Positions 30,939 to 49,143 are shown, counted from the first letter of the stretch. The stretch is 64,000 bases of DNA from Parcubacteria group bacterium (GCA_013204395.1 JABMNZ010000008.1:15014-79013), one strand, 5' to 3'. The notes: generated by a model from the sequence alone, not told the origin. A program made the numbers and translations.

Positions 30939-31014
30939 GTCCTTGTAGCTCAACAGGATAGAGCGCATCCCTCCTAAGGATGACATGGGGGTTCGAGCCC
31001 CTCCAGGGACACCA
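30939..31014 (+). tRNA. tRNA-Arg (anticodon CCT), CCA encoded
   Basis: Acceptor GTCCTTG/CAGGGAC, D-arm TAGCTCAACAGGATAGAGC, anticodon stem CATCC/GGATG with loop CTCCTAA, T-arm GGGGGTTCGAGCCCCTC. Confidence 0.85.
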
Positions 31015-31278: not shown

Positions 31279-31307
31279 TTGACTACATTTAGTATTCATG
31301 GTATACT
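31279..31307 (+). promoter_or_regulatory. Near-consensus sigma70 promoter TTGACT-N17-TATACT driving the surface-protein operon
   Basis: Read directly. The RBS GGTAGAGG then the ATG at 31328 follow. Confidence 0.55.
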
Positions 31308-31327
31308 CTATTTGGTAGAGGTTCTAT

Positions 31328-32233
31328 ATGATATTACGACTTTTCACCTTTGCACTTGTGGGGTTTTTTGTATGCACAGGTTTTGTGCAAGCAGAGATGA
31401 CATCCACAAACTACGAGATTCGGTGGGACACGTTCAGCACCGGTGGTTCTGATACCTCTAGCTCATCCACATATTTGCTCAGAGACTCAGTGGATGGATC
31501 AGGTGCTGCAAGATCATCAAGCTCTAGCTACACCTTGAGTCACGGTTACAGGGAGGGGGTGAATGATCAGGTAATTACATTTGATGTACAGGTTCAGGAT
31601 AGGAGTGATGAACGCTCTGTTTCTACGCTTTCTGGTACGACAATTACCACATCAGTGAGCGGGATCTCTGTATCTGACTATGTGGTTCTCGTTCAAGATA
31701 AGGGAGCTGCTCAGATTGCGGCAGTTGGCAAGGTAATAAGTATTGGAGCATCTTCAATAGTGGTGGACAGCCTCACAAACGGAGGTATTGCACCAACTAT
31801 TGATGGAAGTAACGACTATTTGTACCAAATGGACGCTTCTGCAATTGCTTTAGGGACATTATCATCATCAACATTTAGCACAGGGATTATATCTATGGAG
31901 GTAAGTGCGACAAATGATAACGGCTATGTGGTGCAAATGTTCGAGGATGGGGACATGCGGGCTGGGAGCAATACAATAACTGATGTGTCCGATGGGGCAG
32001 TGACTTTGGGTGCTACGGAGTATGGGGCACGATCATCTGACGTCTCGTTGGCATCAACTACTTTCGATACGGTAGATTCGGCAATCACAACTACTTACCA
32101 GGACGTTGTAACAGAATCTTCAGCAAGTTTTACGAGCAGAAACTTCATTACTGTCAAAGCATCGATTGCTGCAGGAGCAGCTAGTGGTTCGTACGCACAA
32201 ACTCTTTCTTTCATAGCATCAGGGAATTTCTAG
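31328..32233 (+). CDS. Secreted Ser/Thr-rich protein with a WxL-like C-terminus
   Basis: Signal peptide MILRLFTFALVGFFVCTGFVQA. The C-terminal GSYAQTLSFIASGNF resembles the WxL-domain terminal motif [GN]xYxxT[LI]x[WF]xL. Confidence 0.45.
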   Translation: MILRLFTFALVGFFVCTGFVQAEMTSTNYEIRWDTFSTGGSDTSSSSTYLLRDSVDGSGAARSSSSSYTLSHGYREGVNDQVITFDVQVQDRSDERSVSTLSGTTITTSVSGISVSDYVVLVQDKGAAQIAAVGKVISIGASSIVVDSLTNGGIAPTIDGSNDYLYQMDASAIALGTLSSSTFSTGIISMEVSATNDNGYVVQMFEDGDMRAGSNTITDVSDGAVTLGATEYGARSSDVSLASTTFDTVDSAITTTYQDVVTESSASFTSRNFITVKASIAAGAASGSYAQTLSFIASGNF

Positions 32234-32235
32234 AT

Positions 32236-33174
32236 ATGAAGCGACTAGTTCTAACAATTGCATTGTCACTACTAATGCCGGGGATAGTTTCCGCAGCAAG
32301 TGTTTCACCGTCTCTTTTGGAGATCACAGCAGAAAGAGGGGAAACCACTGAGGAATCTATCTCTGTCATTAACACGAGCAGAATTGATAAGACGTATTAC
32401 TTGGACGTCATTGAATTCATTGCCCGTAAGGAAGGAGGGGAACCACAGTTCCTTACATCAGGAGAATCAAATTCCGAACACCTTGGTTGGTTTTCGTTTA
32501 AAACTGACACGGTAATTGTTCCGGCTGAAAGTGTTGGAGAAGTCGTGTTTGATGTAAGTGTTCCTCCAAATGTCCCATCAGGTGGGTACTACGCGGCGGT
32601 TACAATCTCAGAATCACCAGAAGATCTGTTGGCAAGCAATGGCACGATGATTGATGCAAAGATTGCCGTACTTATGCTCATTACCGTTGAAGGTGAGACT
32701 ATCGAGTCTGCACGATTACTGGATTTCATGAGTGATATGTCTGGAGGCTTGTTGTCGACATTGGATCTTGATACTCAATATCGCATTCAAAACCAGGGAA
32801 ATGTACACATTTTTCCAAGCGGGACGATATCAGTCACAGATTTCTTCGGGCGAGCAATTAGTGAAATAGATGCTAACGAAACATTAGGGCGTGTTCTTCC
32901 AGATTCAACACGTGCATACAAGGCATCCATTTCATCTGGAGATCACGTTGGTTGGTATGAGTTAATCAATCATCAGGCACAGTATTTTGCGATCGGTCCA
33001 ATGACGGTAACGCTGGACTTGATGTACGGAAATGATTCACTTCCAATCCAAGCACAATTCTCATTCTGGTTAATTCCGTGGCAGTTAGGGCTTACAGTCA
33101 TCTTATTGGTAGTCCTGCTCCTTCTTGTTTACAAACTTGGTGCTCGTGCATCAAGGAGGACATACAAATCATAA
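32236..33174 (+). CDS. Cell-surface protein resembling the DUF916/DUF3324 family (WxL-locus partner): signal peptide plus a C-terminal TM anchor
   Basis: Signal MKRLVLTIALSLLMPGIVSA. The PSGGYYAAVTIS motif is DUF916-like. A C-terminal TM LTVILLVVLLLLVYKL is followed by a basic tail. Confidence 0.5.
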   Translation: MKRLVLTIALSLLMPGIVSAASVSPSLLEITAERGETTEESISVINTSRIDKTYYLDVIEFIARKEGGEPQFLTSGESNSEHLGWFSFKTDTVIVPAESVGEVVFDVSVPPNVPSGGYYAAVTISESPEDLLASNGTMIDAKIAVLMLITVEGETIESARLLDFMSDMSGGLLSTLDLDTQYRIQNQGNVHIFPSGTISVTDFFGRAISEIDANETLGRVLPDSTRAYKASISSGDHVGWYELINHQAQYFAIGPMTVTLDLMYGNDSLPIQAQFSFWLIPWQLGLTVILLVVLLLLVYKLGARASRRTYKS

Positions 33175-33180
33175 ACATGT

Positions 33181-36100
33181 GTGCGTACGATCATCAACGC
33201 AACTCGAAACATCTTATTAGTCGCGGTTCTAGCAACGGCGATTGTTATGGGTGCTTCACAGGTGTCGGCAGCGACGCTTACTGTAGGGAATGATTATTCT
33301 TCGACACTGCAAATTTCCCAGCAGGCGAACCATTCAGTGATCTTTACAACCCCAACAGGTATAGCAGAAGGTGAAACTCTTACGATTACTTTTGCCACAG
33401 CTTTCAACACATCTTCAATCACTGAGGACGATGTCGATATTGCTGACGATGGTGTTGACCTAACAACCAGCTCAACATGTGCGTCTACTGAGCAGGCATC
33501 AGTGTCAATTGCTTCTGATGTAGTGACGATTACTATTTGTGCTGGTGATGGCGGTGCAATTGCAGCAGCCAGCCAGGTTACTGTCGAGATTGGCACGAAC
33601 GCCTCTTCTTCAGGAACGGGTGCAAACAAAGCCACAAATCCATCAGGTGCTGGAACATATTTTGTAACTATAGCTGGAACGTTCAGTGATCGAGGTTCAA
33701 TAGCTCTTCCGATTGGTGGAGACGACAGTATTCCAGTCTCAGTGACGGTTCCTGAGGTGGAGAGTGGTGGTGGTGACACGCTAGAGGATTCAACCGCTCC
33801 ATCAATAAGCGGGTTAGTAGTTTCTTCAATATCATCGACTTCAGCCATTGTTTCGTGGAGTACAGACGAATCAGGGACTTCGGTGGTTAATTACGGACTG
33901 ACAGAATCGCTTGAGCTTGAAAGTTTTTCAGAGAGTGGTTATGCAACATCTCATGTTGTGACGATGACTGGTCTTGTGGAAGGTCAGACATATTACATAA
34001 GTGCTACTTCAGCAGATTCAATTGGAAATTCGGCGACTTCCAGCACAACAGCTTTCACAACCTTGGATCTTACTCCACCTGTACTTTCAGATATTGAAGT
34101 AATCGACATTACTTACGATTCTGCGCGAGTTACTTGGACAACTGATGAGTCTGCGAATAGCATCGTTTCATATGGCGAAACTGATGCATATCTATTGTCT
34201 GCATCTACCAGTGCATTCGTTACTTTGCACAGCGTTCTACTTTCTGGGTTGAGTGAAGGAACTGAATATCATTTTCAAGTTGGTTCAACCGATCAATCTT
34301 CAAACCAAGTTTTTTCAAGTGATGAAACGTTTACGACAGGTGAGAATCTCCCACCATCAAATGTTTCTGGATTGGTAATAGTGAGTGGAATAAGTAAGTT
34401 GTCACTTTCCTGGACGAATCCGACCGACGATGATTTGGCTGGAATTCGCGTGCTGTTTTGTGAAGATGAATATCCTGACAGTCCCACTGATACAGACTGT
34501 TCAATTACAAATTATGGTCTTGTTGAGGAAGCTACGTTATCGGGCTTAACAGCGGGGGTTACGTACTACCTGGGGGTATTTACTTATGATGATGTAGGGC
34601 AGTTTGCTTCTGGCGCGCTTGGAATTGGGTTACCAAGTGCTCCAGAAGAAGAGTTGCCCTCAGAAGAAGATGATTCTGAGGATGAGTCGGATGAAGATAC
34701 TGGCAGCGGAGACGATCCTGTGGATGAGCCCACAGACGATTCTGAGTCAGGTGATTCCGACGAAGGAGGCGATGACGGTGACAGCTCGGACACAGACGGT
34801 TCCACGGACCTGGCGGTTTTTTGTGGAGATGGTGTGTGTTCAGGGTCTGAATCTCAAGCATCGTGTCCAATCGATTGTGCCAGCGATAGTGAGCCAACCT
34901 CCCTGGGTGCGGAGGAAGGTGAGTTGTCAGATGGCGATATCGAATACTTAGTAGCAGATCGATCTATTTCGCTTGAGACCACCAGCTCCGGTGTGGTCGA
35001 AGTACTTCCCACAAGTACGCTAAGCGTTCAGATCCATGCACGTGAGCTGTCTGATAATGTCAGCTCTATACAGCTGTCAATTGGCAGCGAATTGTTCCTA
35101 CTGTCTCTCGATGAGACGCTCGTTCTTTACAACGCAGATGTTACCGTACCAGCCCAATCGGGCATTCAGCAGGTAACCGTTCTCGTTTTATACGATGACG
35201 GCTCCACTGAAACGGTTTCTTCATACCTGCGTGTAGTCACTCCAGGCTACATATATCAGGTCATCGATGGTGAAGAAGTCGCAGTAACAGACGCAAACAT
35301 TACACTCTATGAAGTTGTTGGTGGAGAACAAATTGTTTGGGATGGGTCCCCATACGATCAGTTCAACCCAATAACTGTTAACTCAGATGGAACATTCTCT
35401 TGGTATGTACCAAACGGTACATACATTGTAGAAGTTCAAGCAGAAGGTTTTGAGACTACAAATTCTGGCCAGCTTGTAATCACAAATTCGATTGTGAATC
35501 ATCGCATTGCCATCGCATCGTACGAGCGTGTGCAGGACGAGGATCCAGTTACTGATGCAGAATCTGAGGATGACGAAAAAGAAACTATTACCGTTATTGG
35601 TGTAATTGAGACAATGCTCGATTATAAACCACTTCAGGCGGTAAGGGAGTCCCTCGAAGTAGTTCGAGATCTTCCAGGTGTTGAAGGGGCAGCAGAGGTT
35701 TCTGTCCCCACACTTGCCATTACTGCAGGGGCAAGTGTGGTGATGCTTTCTGTCGCATTCGATTTCCTTCCTTTCCTACAATATCTTTTCACAGCGCCAG
35801 TACTATTTTTCTGGCGTCGACGTAGGAAGAGTTACGGGGTCGTTTATAACGCTATCTCCAAGACTCCAGTAGATCTTGCAGTGGTGCGTCTCTTCAAAGT
35901 CACGGCTCAAGATGAGGCGGCTGGTTTGCCTGGCCGTCTCGTCAAGAGTCGAGTTACAGATAAAGGGGGTAGATATTTCTTCCTGGTTGACCCAGGAAGG
36001 TATCGTATAACAGCTACAAAAGGTGGGTTTCAGTTCCCATCTGAGTACATGGCTGGAGAAAAGACAGACGGTCAGTATCTAGATGTTTACCATCTCGAGC

Positions 36101-36666
36101 CGATCGAAGTTACAGAGGCAAGTGCGGTTATCTCCGCAAATATTCCGCTCGATCCTCTGCAGCAAAGTTCTGCTCAGGCAGCTACTTCGTATAAGAGAGG
36201 TCGGCTTCTACGACACATGCAACACACAGTCGCGTTTGCAGGTGTGATAGCGGCAGTTATCTTCGCAATCATCCGCCCAACACCGTTTTCAGTAGGAATG
36301 ATTGTTATACAGCTCTGTGTGCTCGTTCTTGCAAAGCGTTTGGCACGCCCAAGGAAACCAATTAGCTGGGGAGTTGTTTACGACAAGGGCACTGGAAGAC
36401 CACTATCTAGAGTTGTTACTCGTATCTTTGAGCCAAAGTACAACAAGGTTCTTGAGACTCAAGTGACCGATAGCAAGGGTAGATACTCGTTCATGCTTGG
36501 ACCAAACACGTATTACGCCACCTTCCAAAAAGATGGGTTTCACACAGTCGAGGTTCGTCCAATTGATTACTCTCAGTTAAAGGAGCCAGTTGATTTCTCT
36601 GAGGAGGTTGGACTTGAACCAGACGTCACAGCATCAACACCACCACAGCCACCATCAAATATTTAG
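33181..36666 (+). CDS. Large (1161 aa) polytopic surface protein with three FN3-like domains, an acidic linker, a Cys-knot motif and three CarboxypepD_reg-like domains separated by TM helices
   Basis: Three repeated FN3-like units (…SWSTDESGTSVVNYG…, …TWTTDESANSIVSYG…, …SWTNPTDDD…). Linker EEDDSEDESDEDTGSGDD… Cys motif CGDGVCSGSESQASCPIDC. Three repeats of the type VTDANITLYEV…GTYIVEV. At least two multi-helix TM blocks. Confidence 0.7.
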   Translation: MRTIINATRNILLVAVLATAIVMGASQVSAATLTVGNDYSSTLQISQQANHSVIFTTPTGIAEGETLTITFATAFNTSSITEDDVDIADDGVDLTTSSTCASTEQASVSIASDVVTITICAGDGGAIAAASQVTVEIGTNASSSGTGANKATNPSGAGTYFVTIAGTFSDRGSIALPIGGDDSIPVSVTVPEVESGGGDTLEDSTAPSISGLVVSSISSTSAIVSWSTDESGTSVVNYGLTESLELESFSESGYATSHVVTMTGLVEGQTYYISATSADSIGNSATSSTTAFTTLDLTPPVLSDIEVIDITYDSARVTWTTDESANSIVSYGETDAYLLSASTSAFVTLHSVLLSGLSEGTEYHFQVGSTDQSSNQVFSSDETFTTGENLPPSNVSGLVIVSGISKLSLSWTNPTDDDLAGIRVLFCEDEYPDSPTDTDCSITNYGLVEEATLSGLTAGVTYYLGVFTYDDVGQFASGALGIGLPSAPEEELPSEEDDSEDESDEDTGSGDDPVDEPTDDSESGDSDEGGDDGDSSDTDGSTDLAVFCGDGVCSGSESQASCPIDCASDSEPTSLGAEEGELSDGDIEYLVADRSISLETTSSGVVEVLPTSTLSVQIHARELSDNVSSIQLSIGSELFLLSLDETLVLYNADVTVPAQSGIQQVTVLVLYDDGSTETVSSYLRVVTPGYIYQVIDGEEVAVTDANITLYEVVGGEQIVWDGSPYDQFNPITVNSDGTFSWYVPNGTYIVEVQAEGFETTNSGQLVITNSIVNHRIAIASYERVQDEDPVTDAESEDDEKETITVIGVIETMLDYKPLQAVRESLEVVRDLPGVEGAAEVSVPTLAITAGASVVMLSVAFDFLPFLQYLFTAPVLFFWRRRRKSYGVVYNAISKTPVDLAVVRLFKVTAQDEAAGLPGRLVKSRVTDKGGRYFFLVDPGRYRITATKGGFQFPSEYMAGEKTDGQYLDVYHLEPIEVTEASAVISANIPLDPLQQSSAQAATSYKRGRLLRHMQHTVAFAGVIAAVIFAIIRPTPFSVGMIVIQLCVLVLAKRLARPRKPISWGVVYDKGTGRPLSRVVTRIFEPKYNKVLETQVTDSKGRYSFMLGPNTYYATFQKDGFHTVEVRPIDYSQLKEPVDFSEEVGLEPDVTASTPPQPPSNI

Positions 36667-36673
36667 GAGGAAT

Positions 36674-39600
36674 ATGTTGCTTAAGAGAAGTACACAATTT
36701 GTAACACTCACACTCGTCATCCTTTCTTTGATGGCAGTGTTTGGGGTTGTGTTGTCTGCTGCTCCACCTAATGTGGTTACCTATCAAGGACGAGTTCTTG
36801 ATACTAATGGGGTACCATCAAGCAGCTCTAGCCTCACTATGAAGTTCTTCTTTTATGACGCATCGTCGTCTGGAACATGTCTCTGGTCAAACTCTAGTGC
36901 TGACTGTGATAGTAATACACCAGCCTCAACCACTGGTAGAAGCGTCACCCTAACAACAGGATTGTTTACTCAGAATCTCGGTGATACATCTGATTCTTTC
37001 GCAGCCGTTGCAGATTCTGTGTTTGGCGATAATACATCTGTCTATCTTGAGGTGGACATCGCCGGAGAAACACTCTCTCCAAGAAAGAGGCTTACGGCAG
37101 CACCGTATGCAATTAATGCTCAGCGTCTTGATGGTATAGATTCAACGGGATTTTTAGCCTCAACAGGAGATACGGGAACAGGAATCTTCGATTTCACAGC
37201 AGCAACACTTGCTGGTGCGTCCCCATTCGTATTCGAGGGGACAACAGCAAACGATTTTGAAACAACATTCACGTTCACAGACCCAACAGGTGACAATGTT
37301 TACACATTCAAAGACGGGTCAGGAACAATTGCGTTCACAAGCGACATTTCAGGGACGGGTCTTTGGGAAGATGGTGTGTCTGGTGTATTCGAAGATGATG
37401 AAGCTGTTATTATCGGATCAAATGCCGCATTTACCTATGGTTCTGGTGGCGTGGGAGATTTGCAAGTATTCGATGAACTTGAGGTAATGGGAGACACATT
37501 TATAGACAACGATCTTGTTGTGGGTGCATCGACAAGCTCGACCGAGACTCTTTCCCATACATCTTTTACGCTCGATGGTGATGATCTGTTCGTTGCTGGG
37601 ACATTAGGGGTTGAAGGAGTTGTTTATTCAGATGGAGGGTTTACAGCAAGTACAACAACAACGTTTGGTGCAGGCGCTATTACCACCACAGGCTCGACAG
37701 ACTTAGCTCTGACGATTGCCGGTGGTGATTTGACGTTTGCACAAAACACTACCATTGGTGATGGGGGTGACACCATCGCAATTAGCACATCTGACTGGAA
37801 CATTACAGCAACAGGAAATCTTTCTGGTATTGGGACGATTGCAACAGATGGTGATGCCACACTGGGTGCTGACCTCATAATCTCTTCAGGTGTACGTATC
37901 GGGACAGGATCAACTCCAGCTAGTTTTACTGCTCTAGCAAACGACAGCCTGTTTGTTGAAGGGGCTATAGAGGTAGATGGTGCTGCTCGCTTTGACTCAA
38001 CAATGGATATCAATGGCATTCCTTCCATTGGAGCAGACATTACCTTTAATGCTGCCACCCCAACTATTGTTATTACAAATGGAGAAACATTTGCAATTAC
38101 CGACGGAACAAATACACTTTTTTCTTTGGTGGATGGTGGAACTGGCGGGAACCTAATTCTTACTGGAGATCTCACGATTGCTGGGGATGATTTAACCATG
38201 GACACCAATACAGCGGGCTTTCTCTTGGTAGGTGATGGAACAAATTACAACCCAGTCGATATTAGTGGAGACATAGATTTAGATTCCTCGGGTGTTGCAA
38301 CTGTCCAAGCTAACTCCGTGGCCCTTTCCACAGACACAACTGGTAACTATGTTGCAACCGTTAGTGATGCTGGTAATGGCACCATTACCGTTGGAGGTGC
38401 TGCTGGAGAAGGAACCGTCATTACTCTTGATGCGGTAAACGTGAACTGTAACGATTGTCTAGACTTTGCTGAGCTCTCGGATGCCCTTACCCTAGACGCC
38501 TCCACATCCATAACCATGGATAGCACGGACCAACTTCTTATAACCAATGGAGGTACTGGAGACGTCATCTTCAATCTTTCTTCTACCGGAGACTTTGTTA
38601 TTCAAGATAATGGGACACCAAGCTTTACTGCTTCTGACAATGGAGCGTTTACGTTTGATGGTGCTGTTACATTTAATTCAGCAACCACACATACACTTGC
38701 CACTAGTGAGAGCATTGCGATATCCAATAATACGGCGACGGCAGACACTTTTGATATTTCGGTTACAGCAGCAGGTAATGATGCGCAAGAGATAAACTTC
38801 ACTCTCGGTAATGACGGAGACAATGACACAGTCAATGCCTTGGAGATCAACGTCACGTCTGCCACGACAGGTGAGGAGGATGTTATTCGGGGGTTACATA
38901 TCGCACCACTGTCTTCAGCTGATGCTAGCGTGACAGAACAAGCGCTTGTGATTGGCTCTGGCTGGGATACAAATTTGTTTTTCAATGATACGTCAACAGT
39001 TATTGAATTGGCTGATACTGGCGTAATCACGTGGAGAGAAGCTGGAGGTACTAATACCCTCATGACCCTCACAGATAATGCCAACGTCGGCGACTTGCTC
39101 ATCTCCGGTGATTTCACGATTCAAGGCGACAATCTAGATTCAGCAGGAGCCCCTCTTGTTCTAAATGCTACAGCCGCCGACGAAGTGCGTGTTGGTACAG
39201 GTACTCCTGGGGTGGCGACAGGTGCGGGGGACTTCTATGTCACAAGCGACATAGAAGCTGATGGAAATTTGAATATTGCTGGGTCTGCGACGATTGGAAG
39301 CCTTGTTTGTAATGACTGTTTTGACTTTACTGAGTTTGCTGATGCGCTTGCTTTAGACGCCTCCACATCCATAACCATGGATAGCACGGACCAACTTCTT
39401 GTAACCAATGGAGGTGCTGGAGACGTCATCTTCAACCTTTCTTCTTCTGGTGATTTCGTGATTCAAGATGGGGCTACGCCAATATTTACAGCTGGAGGCG
39501 ATGGCACGTTTACGTTTGATGGTGCCACAACATTTAACACAGATGTGACCTACACCTTAGTTGCGACAGAGAACGTGGCTATTACAAACACATCTGCAGA

Positions 39601-42600
39601 AACAGAAGTTCTAGATCTGACAGTAACTGCAGCAGAGAATGATGGGGCTGAGATTAATTTTACTCTTGGTAATGATGCTGATGCTGACATAGTAAACGCT
39701 CTTGAGATTCGAGCTACATCAGCTTCCACGGGTGATGCGGATGTGCTTAGGGGTATAAATATCGCCCAGCTTTCTTCCTCTGATCCTACTGTTTCAGAAA
39801 TTGCTCTTAGAATAGCGAATGGGTGGGATTCAAATCTTACGTTCGCAGACACATCAACATTTATTGATATCTTGGACACAGGAGTTTTTACATTTAGAGA
39901 GCTTGGTGGCAACAATACCCTCATGACCCTCACAGATAATGCCAACGTCGGAGATCTTGCGCTTACCGGTGACCTTACCGTTAATGGTGACGACATTTCG
40001 TCAGATTCAAATCTATCCATTGCGGCAACGGGGTATGTCCGTATTGGGGACTCTGGAACACCGGGTTCTGCATCTGATGACGATTCTCTTTATGTGGAGG
40101 GTAAGCTTGAAGTAGATGCAACATCAACCTTCGATGGTGTTGTACTTGGAAATAATGACACTACCTTCACTCTATCAGGAACAAATAATTTTCTTATTGA
40201 AAATGGAAGCGCTACTAGTGATTTATTTAGTGTTAAAATAAGTTCAGCACAAAGCAATGGTGAGACGATTCAGTTCGGTCTGGCAGATGATGGTGATGCA
40301 GATACTCTTTCTGCGCTTAATATAGCCGTAACGTCTGCAGCCACAGGTGATGCGGATGTGCTAAGTGCTCTTAACATTGCAAACCTAGCTTCAGCAGATG
40401 GGACGGTTATTGAGACAGCGATTATTATAGGAACTGGTTGGGATACGGGAATTTCCCTTGGAGCTAACTCAATTGTCGGCACAACTGGATTGATTGATTA
40501 CACCAACTTCGATGTTCTTGCTACGGGTGCAATTCAGGTAACACCAAACGTGGGACTAGATACCAATGCGGGGGGGGTGCTTTCTCTTGCTACTACAAAT
40601 GCGACTTCGATTACCACTGGTAACGCGCTGACAACATTCTCGCTTGCGGGCACAGGACTCACAACACTGAATATTGCTACAGCTAACTCTACGGCAGCCA
40701 CACTGAACCTTGCGACTTCTAATCAGGCAAACGTTATTAATATCGGAACGGGTACGGGTATCGATGATATTAATATTGGAGGAGGAGGAACGGGGGTTGA
40801 TACGATAAATATCGGAGATTCTACAGCAACAGTTGCTATACAAGGTGGTTCGATTACATTCACGCCAGGTGATGATGATGGTTCTGGAAGTGGTAGTGAA
40901 GGAGGATTGGTAAAGATGGAATTGAGTCACACCGGAAGCCTTGCTTATGCTCAAGACCCTCAATTTCTGATTGAAGCAGACGGTCCAAGTAATAATAACT
41001 TTACGGGCGTATTTAAGATTGTTCATGCTCCGCCGTCAGATCGATCCGGTGCCTTTGACTTTGCGACTCAGTATATTCAGTTTGACGGAGTGGCAACAAC
41101 AGACAACACGACCCACCAAGCCATCGTAATTGACGGGAACCTTGCAGATGATGGTTCGGATGATAATTTTTATGCCTACGCCGCAAGAATAAATCAGGGT
41201 GACACTTCAGATGTCGCGGTCACTGGGTATGGTGCTGTAGGAGTCATGATTATCAATGAAAATAACACGACAACAGATGCGGGAGACAACTTAGCTGGAT
41301 TCTATTATGACAATCAAGATACGGACGCGGTAACCGTCGATGCATTTAAAGCTGTGTCCAGCGGATCCGCTATTACAGACGGTCTAGATGTCTCCGATTC
41401 AGATATTGTAAATGGTGTGAACGTTGGAGAAAACTTTGTTCTCTATAATGTCTATAGAACGTATGATCTCTCTGGTTCTGGGCTTGTTTGGGAAGATACA
41501 GATGGTAATGACCTCATGATCCTCTCTGATGCGGCGAATGAAGGAGATCTGCTTGCCACTGGAGACATCACAGCAGATGATTTTATCTGTACTGACTGTC
41601 TTGATTTCGCTGAGCTTGCTGATGCCCTTACCGTAGACGCTTCCACGTCCGTCACAATGAATAGCACTGACCAACTTCTTTTCACAAACGGCGGTACTGG
41701 AGACATTATTTTCAATCTTTCATCCACCGGAGATTTTGTGATTCAAGATGGTGGGAACACACGGTTTAGTGTGAACGATTCAGGTGTGACGACAATTGGA
41801 ACAGGGTCAGCTCCGACGGCAGACATGTTAGCTGTTACAAATGCTGGTTTTGCTACAACGACAACAGATGTTAATGCAGCTTCATTCATACACACAGCCT
41901 CGAATGTATCTTCCTCAGCGGTTTACATTGACGGAGCTTTTGCATCTACTACAACTGGTTTGACCTACAACATCTTGGAACTTGGCGCGATTACTCCAAC
42001 CAATACAACAGGAACAGACAATGTGAATGGACTTTTTATTGGGATAATGACTGATGCAACTGTAACAATTAAGTCAGCGGCAATAGATATTTCTACTGGT
42101 TGGGATGTTGATTTCTCTCTCCAAAATTCAGAATTCGTCAGTAACTCTACTGATGGAAAAGTACGTTTTGGTGGGAGTGGAGGTGCAAGCGATACTGATC
42201 TTGTCTTTAATCTTGATGATGCAACTGGTCCAGTACTCCAGTCTACAAGTGATGAGATTGAAATTGATGCCACACTTACCGTTGATTTGATGAATGTTGG
42301 GGCAACCCAGTTTGCCTTATGCCACCCAAACAGCGACTTGATTGATGAGGCGATTGGTGATTGTTCCGGCGCCCCTACGGCTGATTACGCTGAGCAATAC
42401 CCTGTAGCTGCTGGAGTAGGTTTTGGTGATATCGTGGTTCCGTCTACTACCGTGGTTGTCACCAACGATGGTGATGAGATTGTTCAGATGGTTAAGAGCA
42501 GTGAGCCTTACTCTGGCCCTGTTGTCGGCATTGTTTCAGATAACTTTGGGGACTTTACCTCCGCTGGTTACAACATAGATGAAAGTGATAACCCAATGCC

Positions 42601-44431
42601 CGTAGCTCTTGTTGGTCGTGTTCCGGTGAAGGTGACGGCTGAGGGGGGTGATATTTCTGTGGGTGATTACCTAACAACATCATCAACTCCAGGTGCTGCC
42701 ATGCGCGCAACAAAGGTTGGTCGTGTAATTGGTATGGCCTTAAGTGATTGGGATGGTGTGTCTGCAACCGTCATGGTGCAGGTTAACAATTCCTGGTCCA
42801 TGGGAGATGTGATTGGTACGGACGGCGTTTCCACACTCGTTACTGATAACGTCGTTATTTCTCAGTTGAACGAGGCGACAGCGCAGGACACATCTTTCTC
42901 TAGTTACGGATTAGCTCTTAGAGGAAGCGCTTGGGATGGAGATGAGGCGCAAGCGGTTGAGATGATGCTTCAGAACGTTGTTGAAGACGAAGACAATTAT
43001 CGGCTTAGCGTTCGCAATACAGCTGATTCAGAAGTCGCTTATATTACAAACGAAGGAATCATGCGTATTGCAGGTGACATGGTTATTGGCGGCAACTTGT
43101 ATCCTTCAGATAGAGGAGTGCCACAGACGGACAAATATATTTATTACGATGGATCAGCGGGGCCAGGTGGAGACTTCATGCGTACCAACGCTAGCGGTTG
43201 GTCTACGGGGAGTTATGACTTTGCTGAAATGTTCCCATCCACGCAGAAACTAACAGCAGGTGAGTTGGTTGCCTTCTCGGGTAGTGGTCACAACGTACAA
43301 CGTGCAACAGGTGCAGAGGGTGAACAGCTTGCTGGAATCATTTCTACCCGTCCTGGGTTCTTGGCGGGCGAAAACATAGAAGGGGCGTATCCAGTGGCAT
43401 TAGCCGGTCGTGTTCCAACACGTGTAAGTACAGAAGGAGGAGCCATTGCCGTAGGTGATCCTCTTACCATTTCATCTTCACAAGGAATTGCCATGAAGGC
43501 GAAAGAAGCTGGCATGATCGTTGGTTATGCCCTTGAGGCTTATCGCGGTGGATCAGATAACTTGATTCTTACCTATGTGAATCTTAGTTACTGGGTTGGT
43601 GAGACAACAAGCGTCATGCCTGGTACAGATAATCGCGCCTCTGGCTTTGCCACATCTGGAACGAGCAACTTCACCAGCCTGAACATGAGCGGCAACATCT
43701 ATATGGGAACGAATTCCATCACTGGAATCGGTCGTCTTGAGGGTCTTACTGATGCTTGGTCTATTGAGCAGGATGGAACCATTACAACCACTGGTTTGAT
43801 TGTGAGTCTCGCAGAAAATTATCAGGGGGACCAAGTCGAGACCATGGCGGTTACATCTCCTGAGGTCATGATCACTCTTACCGGCACAGCGATTCTTGAA
43901 GACGGTCAGGCTGAAGTTCGATTCGAACAAGTCGCACCAGAATTTAACGACATAATTAGTGCAGAGGCACCGATTCGAGTACTCGTTACTCCAAGTGGAC
44001 CGGTTTCTCTCTATGTCTCAGAAAAAGATCAGAACCACTTTGTGGTAACTCGATTTGCTGGTGAGGGAGATGTCGAATTCGATTGGATGGTCACCGCCTA
44101 TCGTCGTGGTTACGAGCCAGAAGAAATCGAAGAAGTGATAGAGGAGGAGATGGTTGATGAAGTTATCATCGAACCTGTCGTTGAAACGGTGCTCGTGGAG
44201 GACGAACTATCCACTGAGCCTGTCGAAGTGGTCGTAGAAGAAGTCGTCGAAGAGATTGAAGTTATCCAGCCAGTCGAGACAGATCTCACGACATTGTTTA
44301 TTGAGTTAACAGAAGAAGTAGTCGAAGATCCTGTAGATCCTGCAACTCCGGAGAGCCCGGATGAAATCCTTATTGATGAGACAAGTGAGGTTGATGGCGG
44401 CGAATCAGTCGAGACACCACCAAACTTGTAA
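36674..44431 (+). CDS. Giant (about 2585 aa from ATG 36674) secreted repetitive surface protein, adhesin/fibre-like, with a duplicated C-terminal module
   Basis: RBS AGGAGG then ATG 36674 and signal peptide MLLKRSTQFVTLTLVILSLMAVFG. Long internal DNA and protein repeats (CNDCLDFAELSDALTLDASTSITMDSTDQLL[IV]TNGG[TA]GDVIFNLSS[ST]GDFVIQD, three times). A duplicated C-terminal module begins DYAEQYPVAAGVGFGDIVVP... and again YDFAEMFPSTQKLTAGELVAF... The acidic EEVVEE tail ends the protein. Confidence 0.75.
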   Translation: MLLKRSTQFVTLTLVILSLMAVFGVVLSAAPPNVVTYQGRVLDTNGVPSSSSSLTMKFFFYDASSSGTCLWSNSSADCDSNTPASTTGRSVTLTTGLFTQNLGDTSDSFAAVADSVFGDNTSVYLEVDIAGETLSPRKRLTAAPYAINAQRLDGIDSTGFLASTGDTGTGIFDFTAATLAGASPFVFEGTTANDFETTFTFTDPTGDNVYTFKDGSGTIAFTSDISGTGLWEDGVSGVFEDDEAVIIGSNAAFTYGSGGVGDLQVFDELEVMGDTFIDNDLVVGASTSSTETLSHTSFTLDGDDLFVAGTLGVEGVVYSDGGFTASTTTTFGAGAITTTGSTDLALTIAGGDLTFAQNTTIGDGGDTIAISTSDWNITATGNLSGIGTIATDGDATLGADLIISSGVRIGTGSTPASFTALANDSLFVEGAIEVDGAARFDSTMDINGIPSIGADITFNAATPTIVITNGETFAITDGTNTLFSLVDGGTGGNLILTGDLTIAGDDLTMDTNTAGFLLVGDGTNYNPVDISGDIDLDSSGVATVQANSVALSTDTTGNYVATVSDAGNGTITVGGAAGEGTVITLDAVNVNCNDCLDFAELSDALTLDASTSITMDSTDQLLITNGGTGDVIFNLSSTGDFVIQDNGTPSFTASDNGAFTFDGAVTFNSATTHTLATSESIAISNNTATADTFDISVTAAGNDAQEINFTLGNDGDNDTVNALEINVTSATTGEEDVIRGLHIAPLSSADASVTEQALVIGSGWDTNLFFNDTSTVIELADTGVITWREAGGTNTLMTLTDNANVGDLLISGDFTIQGDNLDSAGAPLVLNATAADEVRVGTGTPGVATGAGDFYVTSDIEADGNLNIAGSATIGSLVCNDCFDFTEFADALALDASTSITMDSTDQLLVTNGGAGDVIFNLSSSGDFVIQDGATPIFTAGGDGTFTFDGATTFNTDVTYTLVATENVAITNTSAETEVLDLTVTAAENDGAEINFTLGNDADADIVNALEIRATSASTGDADVLRGINIAQLSSSDPTVSEIALRIANGWDSNLTFADTSTFIDILDTGVFTFRELGGNNTLMTLTDNANVGDLALTGDLTVNGDDISSDSNLSIAATGYVRIGDSGTPGSASDDDSLYVEGKLEVDATSTFDGVVLGNNDTTFTLSGTNNFLIENGSATSDLFSVKISSAQSNGETIQFGLADDGDADTLSALNIAVTSAATGDADVLSALNIANLASADGTVIETAIIIGTGWDTGISLGANSIVGTTGLIDYTNFDVLATGAIQVTPNVGLDTNAGGVLSLATTNATSITTGNALTTFSLAGTGLTTLNIATANSTAATLNLATSNQANVINIGTGTGIDDINIGGGGTGVDTINIGDSTATVAIQGGSITFTPGDDDGSGSGSEGGLVKMELSHTGSLAYAQDPQFLIEADGPSNNNFTGVFKIVHAPPSDRSGAFDFATQYIQFDGVATTDNTTHQAIVIDGNLADDGSDDNFYAYAARINQGDTSDVAVTGYGAVGVMIINENNTTTDAGDNLAGFYYDNQDTDAVTVDAFKAVSSGSAITDGLDVSDSDIVNGVNVGENFVLYNVYRTYDLSGSGLVWEDTDGNDLMILSDAANEGDLLATGDITADDFICTDCLDFAELADALTVDASTSVTMNSTDQLLFTNGGTGDIIFNLSSTGDFVIQDGGNTRFSVNDSGVTTIGTGSAPTADMLAVTNAGFATTTTDVNAASFIHTASNVSSSAVYIDGAFASTTTGLTYNILELGAITPTNTTGTDNVNGLFIGIMTDATVTIKSAAIDISTGWDVDFSLQNSEFVSNSTDGKVRFGGSGGASDTDLVFNLDDATGPVLQSTSDEIEIDATLTVDLMNVGATQFALCHPNSDLIDEAIGDCSGAPTADYAEQYPVAAGVGFGDIVVPSTTVVVTNDGDEIVQMVKSSEPYSGPVVGIVSDNFGDFTSAGYNIDESDNPMPVALVGRVPVKVTAEGGDISVGDYLTTSSTPGAAMRATKVGRVIGMALSDWDGVSATVMVQVNNSWSMGDVIGTDGVSTLVTDNVVISQLNEATAQDTSFSSYGLALRGSAWDGDEAQAVEMMLQNVVEDEDNYRLSVRNTADSEVAYITNEGIMRIAGDMVIGGNLYPSDRGVPQTDKYIYYDGSAGPGGDFMRTNASGWSTGSYDFAEMFPSTQKLTAGELVAFSGSGHNVQRATGAEGEQLAGIISTRPGFLAGENIEGAYPVALAGRVPTRVSTEGGAIAVGDPLTISSSQGIAMKAKEAGMIVGYALEAYRGGSDNLILTYVNLSYWVGETTSVMPGTDNRASGFATSGTSNFTSLNMSGNIYMGTNSITGIGRLEGLTDAWSIEQDGTITTTGLIVSLAENYQGDQVETMAVTSPEVMITLTGTAILEDGQAEVRFEQVAPEFNDIISAEAPIRVLVTPSGPVSLYVSEKDQNHFVVTRFAGEGDVEFDWMVTAYRRGYEPEEIEEVIEEEMVDEVIIEPVVETVLVEDELSTEPVEVVVEEVVEEIEVIQPVETDLTTLFIELTEEVVEDPVDPATPESPDEILIDETSEVDGGESVETPPNL
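38495..38539 (+). repeat. 45-nt segment identical to 39356-39400, at the core of the roughly 160-nt units repeated at about 38447, 39308 and 41588 inside the giant gene
   Basis: gacgcctccacatccataaccatggatagcacggaccaacttctt is identical in both copies. A second family, accctcatgaccctcacagataatgccaacgtcgg, occurs at about 39055 and about 39917. Confidence 0.7.
39356..39400 (+). repeat. Second copy of the 45-nt identical intragenic repeat
   Basis: See the 38495 entry. Confidence 0.7.
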
Positions 44432-44445
44432 TATCAAAAACTATT

Positions 44446-45021: not shown

Positions 45022-47400
45022 GTGCATATGAATTCTTGGGGAGAACATTTGCGATCAGCTACACGAGGTTGTTTATACCTGCTCGTTTTTTTATTGCCAT
45101 TGATCGCCTTGTCGGTCTCGCTTGAACCCCTTGAATTCAACAAACAAACACTTCTCTTGCTGCTGACATCAGGGGCTGCTCTGTGTTGGCTGGGATCCAT
45201 GGTCGTTGAAAAAAGACTTACGTTCAAACGAGGGCTCATGAACGCACTGCCGCTTGTGTGGGTGGGCGCGTTTATTCTTCCCGCCATCTACTCCATTGCT
45301 CCCTATGTATCTTGGGTTGGCACACACTCTCAGCAGTATGTAAGTGTTTTAACCGCTGGAGCTGTGGCTGTCTTGATGTACCTACTGGCTAACACCTCTA
45401 CAACCAGGGCACATCATCAGCGCATGCACAGTGTCATAACACTCTCAGCAGCCGCGACAGCCCTAGCGACGACATCATTACTGTTCTTCGGTGTTTCTTT
45501 TTTTGGGTCACTTACAGAATCACTGGCTTTTAATAGCGTCGGAACATTAGCGAGCTTGGCTATTTTTCTTACTGCCGTAACGAGCTTTCTTATTGCTTCT
45601 TTGGTGGCACATGAAAAGGAAGATTCGTTATTAGCCGATGGCGTTTGGGGAAAATTTCAAAAGTTGTTCATTCTATTTCTTGCGATCGACACATTTGTTA
45701 TTTTGCTTTTGATCGATAATAAGGGGCTGTGGCTCCTGTGGGTTGTGGCGATGCTCATCCCATTTGTCTTTGCCTTTTTTCGCGCAAAGGATTTTTCGCA
45801 CCAAGAGAGACTGCTTTTCCCGCTGGTTCTTGCCGTTGCTGCCTTACCCTTCTGGTTTTTCTTAGCCTCTCCACTCACGATCGCGATTCCCATTGAAGTG
45901 AGTCCTGACACAGAAAGTTCGATGGCCATTGCCCAGCAGGCCCTTGATACGCATTCTAGTAGTTATGGATCTGGACCCGGAACCTATGCCATGGACTACG
46001 CACGGTTCCACGATGAACGTGTTAATCAAACAGACTTTTGGAACACAAGATTTGATCGAGCTTCATCTCACGTACTCACATTGCTCCCAACCATGGGTAC
46101 CCTTGGAGTGAGTTTGCTTGGTTTGTTTGTACTTATTTTGTTTATGAGAGCCATCCACCAAACATTGGTGAAACCAGGGCGGGATGAATGGTTGGAGAGT
46201 TTCGTCCACATAACTCCTTGGATCGTTCTAGTAATAAGCGCCTTTCTTTTCCCCTGGAACATGACCCTTACGGTATTATTTGGTGTCTTCTCTGGGCTTC
46301 TTTTATCACAAACACTTCCGCGGTCAACAAACAGATCATTTGATAAGTCTCCCGCCCTTGCTCTTCTTGCCTCAACGCTATTAGTGGCTCTTTCACTGGG
46401 GCTCTTAGTGGGTGTGTTTGTTACCACTCAACGCTATGTGGCTCAGCGAGCATTTGCCCAGGCTGTAGAAATCGATCGGTCTGGAGGTGAGCTAAAGGAT
46501 ATTGTGGCTTCCCTGGACAAAGCAACATCTCTTAATCGATTTGACGATACTTATTTCCGTAATCTTGCTGATGCACTTTTGCTTCGCACCGATGAAGAAC
46601 TCAAGGGGGTTAATAGTGTTGATACCCTCACACCTGAAAGTGCTCAGTACATCCAATCGCTTGTTGCCGCAACTGTTAATGCAGCGGCGCGCGCCACAGA
46701 TCTCTCACCAGAGAATGCATTAAATTGGCTTGTTCGTGGTCGGATTTATCAAGAACTTATTCCCATCATGAGCACGGCATCAGAATTTTCCATTTCGAGT
46801 TTTGTTCGGGCGGTGGAACTTGAACCACTGAATCCTTCGCACTGGACTGAACTAGGAATAGCTTATCTCGCCGTCGCCCAGCATATCCAACCAATGACAG
46901 CGGCAGAAGATAAAGAGGCGGCGGCTCAGGCACTTACCACGCACACAGAGTTTCTTGCTTCTGCTCAAAGTTCATTTATTAGGGCGACGGAACTAAAACC
47001 AAACTACGCTCAAGCTCACTATCAACTATCATTGGCTTTTCAGAGGCAGGGTCGCATTGATGAGGCTATTACAAAAATGGAAAGCGTGGCAGCTTATAAT
47101 CAAATTGATGTTGGTGTGCTATTCCAGTTGGGTCTCCTATACCTACAAAGAGGGGATGCTGGTGATGTGGCACTCGCTCAAGCTGCTCTAGAGAGAACTA
47201 TTTCTTTAGCCCCAAGTTATGCAAATGCTTACTGGTTCTTAGCAACGGTGTACGAGGCACAGGGAGATCTTAGTCGCGCAGTGCAAGCAGTTGAGGCTGT
47301 TCTGAGTCTTGAGCCAAATAATCGTCTAGTACAAACACGTCTAGATCGTCTCCTGCAAGGTAATCCAACTGGGGAGTTACCAGAGGCACTAGTAGAATAA
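45022..47400 (+). CDS. Polytopic membrane protein (O-antigen ligase/Wzy-like) fused to C-terminal TPR repeats. GTG 45022 is the track start; an ATG at 45028 is also possible
   Basis: The N-terminal roughly 450 aa holds 10 or more TM helices. The C-terminal roughly 300 aa has TPR-like repeats (AQAHYQLSLAFQRQGRIDEAI..., ANAYWFLATVYEAQGDLSRAV...). Confidence 0.65.
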   Translation: MHMNSWGEHLRSATRGCLYLLVFLLPLIALSVSLEPLEFNKQTLLLLLTSGAALCWLGSMVVEKRLTFKRGLMNALPLVWVGAFILPAIYSIAPYVSWVGTHSQQYVSVLTAGAVAVLMYLLANTSTTRAHHQRMHSVITLSAAATALATTSLLFFGVSFFGSLTESLAFNSVGTLASLAIFLTAVTSFLIASLVAHEKEDSLLADGVWGKFQKLFILFLAIDTFVILLLIDNKGLWLLWVVAMLIPFVFAFFRAKDFSHQERLLFPLVLAVAALPFWFFLASPLTIAIPIEVSPDTESSMAIAQQALDTHSSSYGSGPGTYAMDYARFHDERVNQTDFWNTRFDRASSHVLTLLPTMGTLGVSLLGLFVLILFMRAIHQTLVKPGRDEWLESFVHITPWIVLVISAFLFPWNMTLTVLFGVFSGLLLSQTLPRSTNRSFDKSPALALLASTLLVALSLGLLVGVFVTTQRYVAQRAFAQAVEIDRSGGELKDIVASLDKATSLNRFDDTYFRNLADALLLRTDEELKGVNSVDTLTPESAQYIQSLVAATVNAAARATDLSPENALNWLVRGRIYQELIPIMSTASEFSISSFVRAVELEPLNPSHWTELGIAYLAVAQHIQPMTAAEDKEAAAQALTTHTEFLASAQSSFIRATELKPNYAQAHYQLSLAFQRQGRIDEAITKMESVAAYNQIDVGVLFQLGLLYLQRGDAGDVALAQAALERTISLAPSYANAYWFLATVYEAQGDLSRAVQAVEAVLSLEPNNRLVQTRLDRLLQGNPTGELPEALVE

Positions 47401-49117: not shown

Positions 49118-49143
49118 GGATTTTCCTCCTCTATTGCATTGCG

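What the first reader, a model, noticed from the sequence alone, without database searches (positions are those of the whole stretch)
31279..44431. Four-gene cell-surface operon: WxL-like protein, DUF916/3324-like anchor protein and two giant multi-domain proteins behind a consensus promoter
These are the sequence observations. A near-perfect sigma70 promoter (TTGACT-N17-TATACT) precedes four co-directional, tightly spaced genes. Every one has a signal peptide or TM anchor. Together they span 13 kb, about 20 % of the window.

The inference runs as follows. Gene 1 ends in a WxL-like motif. Gene 2 has the PSGGYY core and C-terminal TM that define DUF916/DUF3324 proteins, the established partners of WxL proteins in Firmicute surface loci. 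Here they are fused into an operon with two giant proteins. One is an 1161-aa polytopic protein with three FN3-like and three CarboxypepD_reg-like modules. The other is a roughly 2600-aa repetitive fibre-like protein.

In a streamlined low-GC genome that spends this much coding capacity on one surface apparatus, this could be a dedicated cell-cell attachment or host-attachment system that has not been described as such.
Basis: partly seen in the sequence, partly recalled or inferred. Interest (0 to 1): 0.8.

Follow-up and report, generated by a model that had tools for sequence, protein, structure and literature searches.

The report
Pilus-like surface appendage locus in Uhrbacteria
This is a strictly conserved gene cluster of an ultrasmall (CPR/Patescibacteria) bacterium that most likely builds a cell-surface attachment appendage, and it is a stripped-down relative of the "Pam" pilus described in 2026 whose helper protein is also related to the WxL surface systems of Gram-positive bacteria.

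Summary
The genes, the promoter and the export signals are real. The source is a Parcubacteria/Uhrbacteria-type genome bin. GC is 48.5 %, so it is not low-GC.

- **Gene 2** is a true remote homologue of the WxL-interacting protein WxLIP (DUF916). It has two beta-sandwich domains and a C-terminal membrane helix. WxLIP is its best solved-structure match, followed by chaperone-usher chaperones.
- **Gene 1** is not a WxL protein. It has no W-x-L motif and no Pfam hit. It matches the CPR pilus models PamT and Pam_pilin_C below their curated cut-offs, and its C-terminal domain resembles donor-strand pilins.
- **Gene 3** begins with the N-terminal domain and linker strand of two-domain Pam-type pilins. 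Three FN3 domains and a membrane module follow.
- **Gene 4** begins with a domain like that of Bdellovibrio mosaic adhesive trimer (MAT) fibres.
- **A fifth gene**, a many-pass membrane protein with TPR repeats, always follows.

The gene order is invariant wherever the contig reaches far enough: 54 of 54 genomes for genes 1-4, and 11 of 11 for gene 5. In some relatives the gene-1 N-terminal motif is fused directly onto gene 3, and gene 2 is absent.

Best model: gene 3 is the anchor, gene 1 the tip subunit joined by strand complementation, gene 2 the chaperone and gene 4 the fibre. This is a new variant of a known kind.

The parts
31279..31307 (+). Sigma-70-type promoter TTGACT-N17-(TG)TATACT. 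It ends 20 nt before the gene-1 ATG, so the leader is very short.
   Evidence: Read directly. The scan gives 10/12 matches plus TG. An element matching at least 10 of 12 positions is present in 22 of 30 relatives, mostly at the same distance from the ATG.
31328..32233 (+). Gene 1 (301 aa): PamT-like tip or pilin subunit. Residues 1-22 are a signal peptide. Residues 23-78 are a highly conserved S/T-rich N-terminal motif with three S-x-x-Y-x-[ILV] units. A C-terminal acceptor-type beta domain follows, interrupted by a small beta-barrel insertion at about residues 83-146.
32236..33174 (+). Gene 2 (312 aa): membrane-anchored chaperone of the WxLIP/PapD type. It has a signal peptide, two beta-sandwich domains, a C-terminal transmembrane helix (residues 282-311) and a basic cytoplasmic tail.
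   Evidence: AF2 pLDDT 91.6. Foldseek ranks WxLIP 9i25_C/9i1y first, followed by CsuC, CfaA, Caf1M and DraB. The family profile hits EfmWxLIP1 at E 3e-7. PF06030 is hit in 23 of 42 relatives.
33181..36666 (+). Gene 3 (1161 aa): candidate base or anchor. In order it has a signal peptide, a pilin-type N-terminal domain plus linker strand (residues ~28-194, DNA 33262-33762), three FN3 domains (~205-480), an acidic spacer and a Cys motif, then an Ig/transthyretin-like region. The membrane module has hydrophobic segments at 840-871 and 1012-1056, each followed by a basic stretch and a CarboxypepD_reg-like domain.
   Evidence: Pfam fn3 x3 and CarboxypepD_reg x3. Hydrophobic segments. An HMM of the N-domain hits the N-terminal halves of the two-domain pilins P0341 (3e-21), P0337 (5e-13) and P0349 (9e-8). 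The alignment runs through the linker strand, PVSVTV against TVSATV.
36674..44431 (+). Gene 4 (2585 aa): giant fibre. It has an N-terminal signal or anchor, then a MAT-fibre-like N-domain of about 140 aa. Repeats of about 290 aa lie at ~473-760, 787-1040 and 1586-1840. A duplicated C-terminal module lies at ~1905-2046 and 2183-2311, followed by an acidic E/V-rich tail. Residue numbers count from 36671, so they are one higher than numbering from the ATG.
   Evidence: Bdello_MAT_N matches at E 1e-6, 1e-6 and 6e-8 for this protein and two orthologues, all below the cut-off. Self-BLAST shows the repeats. No Pfam, PHROG or PDB-sequence hits. Orthologue length ranges from 1091 to 4559 aa.
45022..47400 (+). 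It is conserved directly downstream of gene 4.
   Evidence: Pfam TPR families at residues 650-770. Hydrophobic segments. Present after gene 4 in 11 of 11 loci that reach far enough, and in L001 and L087. The membrane part has no Pfam hit.
30939..31014 (+). tRNA-Arg(CCT), marking the upstream boundary of the locus. Further upstream lie rmuC, rpsT, holA and polA.
   Evidence: ARAGORN and Rfam. Pfam on the flanking genes. The same flanking genes occur in L001 and L002.

Best explanation
The locus encodes a Sec-exported, usher-less surface appendage of a single-membrane CPR bacterium. It is put together by chaperone-assisted beta-strand complementation, as proposed for the CPR Pam pilus.

**Roles proposed for each gene**
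- Gene 3 is the membrane-embedded base and stalk. Its N-terminus is a pilin-type N-domain plus linker (donor) strand, but it lacks an acceptor domain. It can therefore plug into a subunit but cannot be extended itself.
- Gene 1 is the distal subunit. Its C-terminal acceptor domain is first held by gene 2, the membrane-anchored WxLIP/PapD-like chaperone. It is then completed by the gene-3 linker strand. Its conserved N-terminal triple S-x-x-Y-x-L motif ends up at the outer end.
- Gene 4 is a giant fibre of variable length with a MAT-type N-domain. It is the reach and adhesion element, possibly docked on this tip.
- Gene 5 is a conserved membrane/TPR accessory of unknown role.

**Shown**: the homologies, the folds, the invariant gene order and the natural fusion.

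**Inferred**: strand complementation between genes 3 and 1, chaperone hand-off by gene 2, the number of gene-1 copies (one cap or a homopolymer), docking of gene 4, and a role in host attachment.
For: - **Gene 2.** The fold and the sequence profile match WxLIP and chaperone-usher chaperones. AlphaFold2 has been reported to predict a DUF916 strand inserting into WxL (PMC10599100). PamC and PamD are described as PapD/FimC-like chaperones with a C-terminal transmembrane helix.
- **Gene 1.** It is significantly related to PamT and Pam_pilin_C. Its C-terminal domain resembles donor-strand pilins. An aromatic C-terminus is conserved in 116 of the 150 listed profile hits.
- **Gene 3.** Its N-domain and linker strand are homologous to the N-terminal half of two-domain pilins that carry the gene-1-type C-terminal domain.
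- **Partnership elsewhere.** Gene-2-like chaperones sit beside Pam_pilin_C-type pilins in other CPR loci, L004 and L088.
- **Gene order.** Among 80 species-level genomes, gene 2 follows gene 1 in 76 of 77 loci with room. The gene-3 N-domain follows in 70 of 70, the gene-3 membrane module in 61 of 61 and the gene-4 N-domain in 54 of 54.
- **Natural fusion.** P0340 is gene-1 residues 1-75 (53 % identity) joined to gene-3 residues 296-1145 (37 % identity over 854 aa). The gene-1 C-terminal domain, gene 2 and the gene-3 N-domain are all missing, and the gene-4-like and gene-5-like genes still follow. P0343 has the same architecture in a second assembly.
- **Gene 4.** It and its orthologues match the MAT N-domain, which is thought to bind a cell-surface element.
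Against: - No complex could be modelled, so no strand insertion was seen. This holds for genes 3 and 1, genes 2 and 1, and gene 1 with itself.
- The Pam matches are below NCBIfam's curated cut-offs (30.5 against 55 bits; 45.9 against 240 bits).
- The Pam paper describes PamT as a tip subunit without a donor strand. A long gene-1 filament is therefore uncertain.
- The MAT N-domain match is weak (28.6 bits against a cut-off of 60).
- There is no expression or localisation evidence. The organism is uncultured.
Confidence: 0.6

Rival explanations
1. This is a static WxL-type surface complex, not a pilus-like assembly. Gene 2 acts as in Firmicute WxL clusters: it is a permanent membrane tether that holds gene 1 at the cell surface by inserting a strand. 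Genes 3 and 4 are separate adhesins that are merely co-regulated.
For: The closest solved relative of gene 2, by both structure and sequence profile, is WxLIP rather than a pilus chaperone. WxLIP is proposed to bind and stabilise WxL on the surface. A small protein, a WxLIP-like protein and large proteins together mirror the layout of a WxL cluster.
Against: Gene 1 lacks both W-x-L motifs and any WxL Pfam signal. The gene-3 N-terminus is a pilin N-domain plus linker strand, which has no role in this model. The natural fusion drops gene 2 and puts the gene-1 motif directly on gene 3. That argues the partner of gene 1 is gene 3, not gene 2.
Confidence: 0.17
2. This is a long homopolymeric Pam-type filament. 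Gene 1 polymerises head-to-tail. The third N-terminal S-Y-x-L-x-x-G-Y unit acts as donor strand into the C-terminal domain of the next subunit. Gene 2 catalyses exchange, and gene 3 terminates and anchors the fibre.
For: The N-terminal motif is highly conserved yet modelled as disordered in the monomer, as donor extensions often are. Its third unit occupies the position of the linker strand of two-domain pilins in an alignment. Gene 1 is the most conserved protein of the locus: 65 % mean column identity against 36 % for gene 2.
Against: PamT, the closest described relative, is modelled as a single tip subunit. In the fused variants one copy of the motif is covalently attached to the anchor, and no acceptor domain or chaperone is encoded nearby. 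No multimer model could be made.
Confidence: 0.15
3. The locus is a domesticated or remnant phage tail-fibre module, or simply unrelated surface proteins sharing a promoter.
Against: No other phage genes are present. The locus sits between polA-holA-rpsT-rmuC-tRNA-Arg and a TPR gene in distant relatives. The gene order is invariant in 54 of 54 genomes. Gene 4 has no PHROG hit. The fusion links gene 1 to gene 3.
Confidence: 0.05

Closest known systems
Pam pilus of Candidatus Mycosynbacter amalyticus (Saccharimonadia), Troman et al. 2026, bioRxiv 10.64898/2026.03.03.709456
   Same: It is restricted to CPR bacteria. All parts are exported by Sec. The pilin C-terminal domain is a truncated Ig-like acceptor. 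The chaperones are PapD/FimC-like and carry a C-terminal transmembrane helix. A tether with FnIII domains and a transmembrane helix plugs into the last pilin. There is no usher. A 'tail fibre-like' protein is conserved nearby.
   Different: This locus has one pilin-like gene (PamT-like, with a beta-barrel insertion) instead of PamA, B, E and T. It has one chaperone instead of two. The tether is a 1161-aa polytopic protein that carries a full pilin N-domain. A 2585-aa fibre and a TPR membrane protein lie in the same invariant cluster. The lineage (Parcubacteria/Uhrbacteria) is not discussed in the paper. All scores are below NCBIfam's Pam cut-offs.
WxL clusters of Firmicutes (WxL proteins plus WxLIP = DUF916-DUF3324-TM), Hassan et al. 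2023, PMC10599100; PDB 9i25 and 9i1y
   Same: Gene 2 shares the WxLIP architecture and is its detectable homologue. The cluster logic is the same: a small secreted protein, a membrane-anchored two-Ig-domain partner and large surface proteins. Insertion of a WxLIP strand into its partner has been predicted.
   Different: There is no WxL domain and no W-x-L motif in any of the four proteins. No DUF3324 Pfam hit was found. The organism is a CPR bacterium, not a Firmicute.
Classical and archaic chaperone-usher pili (Pap, Fim, Csu, CFA/I, Caf1)
   Same: The gene-2 fold matches CsuC, CfaA, Caf1M and DraB. The gene-1 C-terminal domain resembles CsuA/B, CS17, FimA and the FimH and PapG pilin domains. 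A terminating subunit that can donate a strand but cannot accept one is analogous to FimI and PapH (from general knowledge).
   Different: There is no usher and no outer membrane. The chaperone is membrane-anchored. There is no sequence similarity.
Mosaic adhesive trimer (MAT) fibres of Bdellovibrio bacteriovorus, Caulton et al. 2024, PMC10769870
   Same: Gene 4 and its orthologues match the conserved MAT N-terminal domain directly after the signal sequence. They are long, modular and variable in length.
   Different: The match is below the curated cut-off. No S74 domain was detected by Pfam. Trimer formation and tip domains were not tested. The repeat modules have no known relatives.

Membership tests
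[quoted passage not shown] | WxLIP: DUF916 (PGBD) plus DUF3324 (HBD) beta-sandwich domains plus a C-terminal transmembrane helix | tested here: inconclusive
   The architecture and fold are met. WxLIP is the top Foldseek match at E 8e-13. The family profile hits EfmWxLIP1 at E 3e-7, over the PGBD domain only. The window protein itself has no PF06030 or PF11797 hit. 23 of 42 relatives hit PF06030 and none hits DUF3324.
WxL cluster | Two or more proteins with a WxL domain (dual Trp-x-Leu motif, PF13731) | tested here: not met
   No WxL Pfam hit for any of the four proteins or for 40 gene-1 relatives. Gene 1 has one Trp and no W-x-L; genes 3 and 4 have no W-x-L either.
WxL cluster | Peptidoglycan binding of the WxL and PGBD domains | not testable with these tools
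   This needs biochemistry.
CPR Pam pilus (Troman et al. 2026; NCBIfam NF058579, NF058581) | Pilin with a C-terminal truncated Ig-like acceptor domain (CPR_Pam_pilin_C) | tested here: inconclusive
CPR Pam pilus | PamT equivalog (score of at least 240 bits) | tested here: not met
   45.9 bits, matching only model positions 6-117. The best score among 67 wider relatives is E 3e-22, still below the cut-off. Gene 1 is a homologue, not an equivalog.
CPR Pam pilus | PapD/FimC-like chaperone carrying a C-terminal transmembrane helix | tested here: met
   AF2 model with two beta-sandwich domains and helix 282-311. Foldseek matches to CsuC, CfaA, Caf1M and DraB. Direct comparison with PamC and PamD was not possible because their sequences are not held.
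CPR Pam pilus | Membrane tether with FnIII domains whose N-terminus plugs into the last pilin (PamR) | tested here: inconclusive
   Gene 3 has three fn3 domains and transmembrane segments, plus a pilin N-domain and linker strand. It is four times larger than PamR, and no complex was modelled.
CPR Pam pilus | Filament formed by donor-strand exchange | not testable with these tools
   This needs a multimer prediction or cryo-EM.
Chaperone-usher pathway | Outer-membrane usher (PF00577) | tested here: not met
   No usher hit in any of the four proteins.
MAT fibre superfamily (Bdellovibrio) | Conserved beta-rich N-terminal domain of about 130 aa directly after the signal peptide (NF053851) | tested here: inconclusive
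   E 1.1e-6, 28.6 bits against a cut-off of 60, covering model positions 4-160 of 162. The two orthologues score 1e-6 and 6e-8.
MAT fibre superfamily (Bdellovibrio) | Intertwined trimeric beta-prism shaft with a variable C-terminal tip, with or without an S74 domain | not tested
   No structure prediction was available for gene 4. Pfam shows no Peptidase_S74.

The most novel reading that the evidence does not exclude
The WxL clusters of Firmicutes and the Pam pili of CPR bacteria may be two branches of one ancient assembly system of single-membrane bacteria. That system would be usher-less and driven by a membrane-anchored chaperone using strand complementation. In Uhrbacteria it would be reduced to a single-joint device. 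The gene-3 stalk captures one gene-1 tip adaptor. The adaptor's triple S-x-x-Y-x-L motif would be the docking site for the N-domains of the trimeric MAT-like giant fibre. This would give a modular host-attachment organelle whose joint can be replaced by a covalent fusion.
Probability: 0.25. Interest if true: 0.75.

Novelty: new variant of a known kind. Interest (0 to 1): 0.58.

Why it matters
CPR/Patescibacteria are thought to live attached to host cells, but attachment machinery is known only for a few cultured Saccharimonadia.

- This locus gives a concrete, strictly conserved candidate attachment apparatus for the uncultured Uhrbacteria/Parcubacteria branch.
- It shows that the newly described Pam-type assembly exists in a minimal form: one subunit, one chaperone and one anchor.
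- It ties that machinery by sequence and structure to the WxLIP proteins of Gram-positive WxL clusters, a link not made in either literature as far as it was searched.
- It provides a natural split-versus-fused pair that predicts which parts touch each other.
- Each prediction can be tested directly by multimer modelling, co-expression or cryo-ET.

Tried and rejected
- Pfam WxL, DUF916 and DUF3324 on the window proteins gave no hits. The link for gene 2 appeared only through family-wide scans and profiles.
- Sequence searches of solved structures with genes 1, 2 and 4, and with the gene-1 profile, gave nothing significant.
- Foldseek of gene 1 against the PDB gave no significant match.
- PHROGs returned only an FN3-type hit for gene 3.
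- HMMs of genes 1 and 2 against genes 3 and 4 showed no hidden pilin C-terminal domain or chaperone domain in the giant proteins.
- The third homologue search, using the gene-3 N-domain, returned only 13 fragments. The link to two-domain pilins was made locally instead.
- The contigs carrying P0341 and P0343 were too short to give context.
- NCBIfam on the pam-like locus L088 gave nothing above the curated cut-offs.
- Pfam on the membrane part of gene 5 gave no hit, so the idea of an O-antigen-ligase or glycosyltransferase role is unsupported.
- Rfam found only tRNAs in the window.
- No terminator-like site was found on the + strand between gene 4 and gene 5.
- M. amalyticus Pam protein sequences could not be obtained. 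PamC and PamD were never compared directly with gene 2.


Full report
**What is there**

The window holds four tightly packed + strand ORFs:

| Gene | Coordinates | Length |
|---|---|---|
| 1 | 31328-32233 | 301 aa |
| 2 | 32236-33174 | 312 aa |
| 3 | 33181-36666 (GTG start) | 1161 aa |
| 4 | ends at 44431 | see below |

The best start for gene 4 is the ATG at 36674, directly behind AGGAGG. This gives 2585 aa. Residue numbers for gene 4 below count from 36671, so they are one higher.

The promoter TTGACT-N17-TATACT with an extended -10 TG lies at 31279-31307, 20 nt before the gene-1 ATG. Such matches are not enriched in this region: 12 were found where 24 were expected from shuffles. What makes this one credible is conservation. 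An element matching at least 10 of 12 positions is present in 22 of 30 relatives. It is mostly TTGAC[T/G]-17-TATACT at 19-21 nt from the ATG.

Upstream lie polA, holA, rpsT, rmuC and tRNA-Arg(CCT). The window is 48.5 % GC and the locus 46 %, so 'low-GC' is wrong.

Identical proteins are on record from a 'Parcubacteria group bacterium' genome bin (locus tags HQ488_01750 and HQ488_01755). Relatives are mostly Candidatus Uhrbacteria.

**Gene 2**

- The window protein has no Pfam DUF916 or DUF3324 hit.
- 23 of 42 relatives hit PF06030, now named WxLIP_PGBD, weakly.
- The family profile hits Enterococcus faecium WxLIP1 (PDB 9i25_C, 9i1y_A) at E 3e-7. This is the only significant solved-structure sequence match.
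- The AlphaFold model is confident (pLDDT 91.6). It shows a signal peptide, two beta-sandwich domains and a C-terminal membrane helix at residues 282-311.
- Foldseek ranks WxLIP first (E 8e-13). The chaperones of chaperone-usher pili follow: CsuC, CfaA, Caf1M and DraB.

**Gene 1**

- No Pfam WxL signal exists in gene 1 or in 40 relatives. The protein has one Trp and no W-x-L.
- NCBIfam instead gives CPR_pilus_PamT (E 4e-12, N-terminal half of the model) and CPR_Pam_pilin_C (E 3e-7). Both are below their curated cut-offs. 40 of 40 and 35 of 40 relatives hit these models.
- These models derive from the Pam pilus of Ca. Mycosynbacter amalyticus. In that system two-domain pilins polymerise by donor-strand exchange. 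Membrane-anchored PapD-like chaperones (PamC, PamD) assist. PamT caps the tip, and an FnIII/transmembrane protein (PamR) tethers the base.
- In the gene-1 model, residues 1-78 are low-confidence although highly conserved. The rest is confident.
- A profile search of 1.84 billion representatives found 1041 relatives. Many are PamT-like proteins of 210-240 aa that lack a roughly 60-aa beta-barrel insertion present in gene 1. Some are two-domain pilins that share only the C-terminal domain. Two are large proteins that share only the N-terminal motif.

**Gene 3**

- Pfam confirms three fn3 and three CarboxypepD_reg stretches. Hydrophobic segments lie at 840-871 and 1012-1056.
- An HMM of its N-terminal domain (residues 28-200) hits the N-terminal halves of P0341 (3e-21), P0337 (5e-13) and P0349 (9e-8). 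These same proteins carry the gene-1-type C-terminal domain.
- The alignment runs through the linker strand: 'DDSI-PVSVTV' in gene 3 against 'DDxV-TVSATV' in the pilins. After that point the pilins continue into the acceptor domain and gene 3 continues into FN3 domains.

Gene 3 therefore has the donor half of a Pam-type pilin but not the acceptor half. That is the property expected of a terminating anchor.

**Gene 4 and gene 5**

- Gene 4 has no Pfam, PHROG or PDB-sequence relatives.
- Its N-terminal domain and those of two orthologues match the N-domain of Bdellovibrio mosaic adhesive trimer fibres. The E-values are 1e-6, 1e-6 and 6e-8, below the cut-off. That domain is thought to bind a cell-surface element.
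- Gene 4 has repeats of about 290 aa and a duplicated C-terminal module. Orthologues range from 1091 to 4559 aa.
- Gene 5 (45022-47400) is a protein with about 12 hydrophobic segments and C-terminal TPR repeats. It follows gene 4 in 11 of 11 relatives that reach that far, and in L001 and L087. Its membrane part has no Pfam match.

**Co-conservation**

A scan of species-representative genomes gave 80 loci, all from CPR-type genome bins.

| Feature downstream of gene 1 | Present / loci with enough contig |
|---|---|
| Gene 2 | 76 / 77 |
| Gene-3 N-domain | 70 / 70 |
| Gene-3 membrane module | 61 / 61 |
| Gene-4 N-domain | 54 / 54 |

The single exception for gene 2 has a masked run of N at that place.

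More distant loci pair gene-2-like chaperones with Pam_pilin_C-type pilins:
- L004 reads pilin-chaperone-pilin-chaperone.
- L088 has a 1274-aa 'large pilin', a two-domain pilin, a chaperone, and a MazE gene as in the published pam neighbourhood.

**A natural fusion**

P0340 (933 aa) consists of gene-1 residues 1-75 (53 % identity) joined to gene-3 residues 296-1145 (37 % identity over 854 aa). In its locus (L087) no gene-1 C-terminal domain, no gene 2 and no gene-3 N-domain are present. The gene-4-like fibre and the TPR gene still follow. P0343, from another assembly, has the same build.

Exactly the three parts proposed to form the non-covalent joint are dispensable once the gene-1 motif is covalently attached to the gene-3 stalk. 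This argues that gene 1 sits on gene 3 and that its N-terminal motif is the outward-facing functional element.

**Interpretation and limits**

The best-supported model is an usher-less, chaperone-assisted, strand-complemented appendage. Gene 3 is the base, gene 1 the tip (or possibly a polymer), gene 2 the chaperone and gene 4 the adhesive fibre.

- All Pam and MAT matches are below curated cut-offs.
- There are no expression data.

The Pam paper does not mention WxL/DUF916, Parcubacteria, Uhrbacteria, Paceibacteria or ABY1. A literature search found no paper linking WxL to donor-strand assembly. The WxLIP-Pam connection and this minimal five-gene form therefore appear to be undescribed. The general kind of machine, however, is known.

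Noticed in passing
window 45022-47400: A 792-aa protein with about 12 hydrophobic segments and C-terminal TPR repeats always follows gene 4 in relatives: 11 of 11 loci that reach far enough, plus L001 and L087. The conserved cluster therefore has five genes. The membrane part has no Pfam match, so its role is unknown. A role in modifying the Ser/Thr-rich proteins is only a guess.
   Followed up: partly
window 48000-54000: GC rises to 57-60 %, against about 46-48 % around the locus. The long ORFs there, on both strands, had no Pfam hit at E 1e-5, and Rfam finds no RNA gene.
   Followed up: no
L087 1641-4442 (P0340); L086 879-3024 (P0343): Natural fusion proteins join the gene-1 signal peptide and N-terminal motif directly to the FN3/membrane body of gene 3. 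No gene-1 C-terminal domain or gene 2 lies nearby.
   Followed up: yes
L088 14-3838: A 1274-aa protein has several repeated copies of a segment resembling the gene-1 N-terminal motif and a C-terminal gene-1-type pilin domain. It lies next to a two-domain pilin and a gene-2-like chaperone. This 'large pilin' parallels the large WxL proteins of Firmicutes. NCBIfam gives it no hit.
   Followed up: partly
L012, L014, L016, L018 and many others among L005-L084: Many species-representative genome bins that carry this Uhrbacteria-type locus are titled 'uncultured Gammaproteobacteria bacterium' in their records. This looks like a labelling error.
   Followed up: no
window 34810-34870 (gene 3, residues ~546-565): A Cys-rich motif, FCGDGVCSGSESQASCPIDC, follows a strongly acidic spacer. 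The same C-x-D-x-x-C ... C-P-x-D-C pattern is kept in the fused relative P0340 (CGDDICSETESGFTCPSDC).
   Followed up: no
window 35700-36660 (gene 3, residues ~840-1161): The unit 'hydrophobic segment, then a basic stretch (RRRRK / RPRKP), then a CarboxypepD_reg-like domain' occurs twice. By the positive-inside rule these two domains may be cytoplasmic, which would be unusual for this domain type. Topology was not tested.
   Followed up: no
window 44432-45021: A 590-nt gap separates gene 4 from gene 5 here, whereas in most relatives the two genes abut or overlap. No terminator-like site was found on the + strand in the gap.
   Followed up: partly
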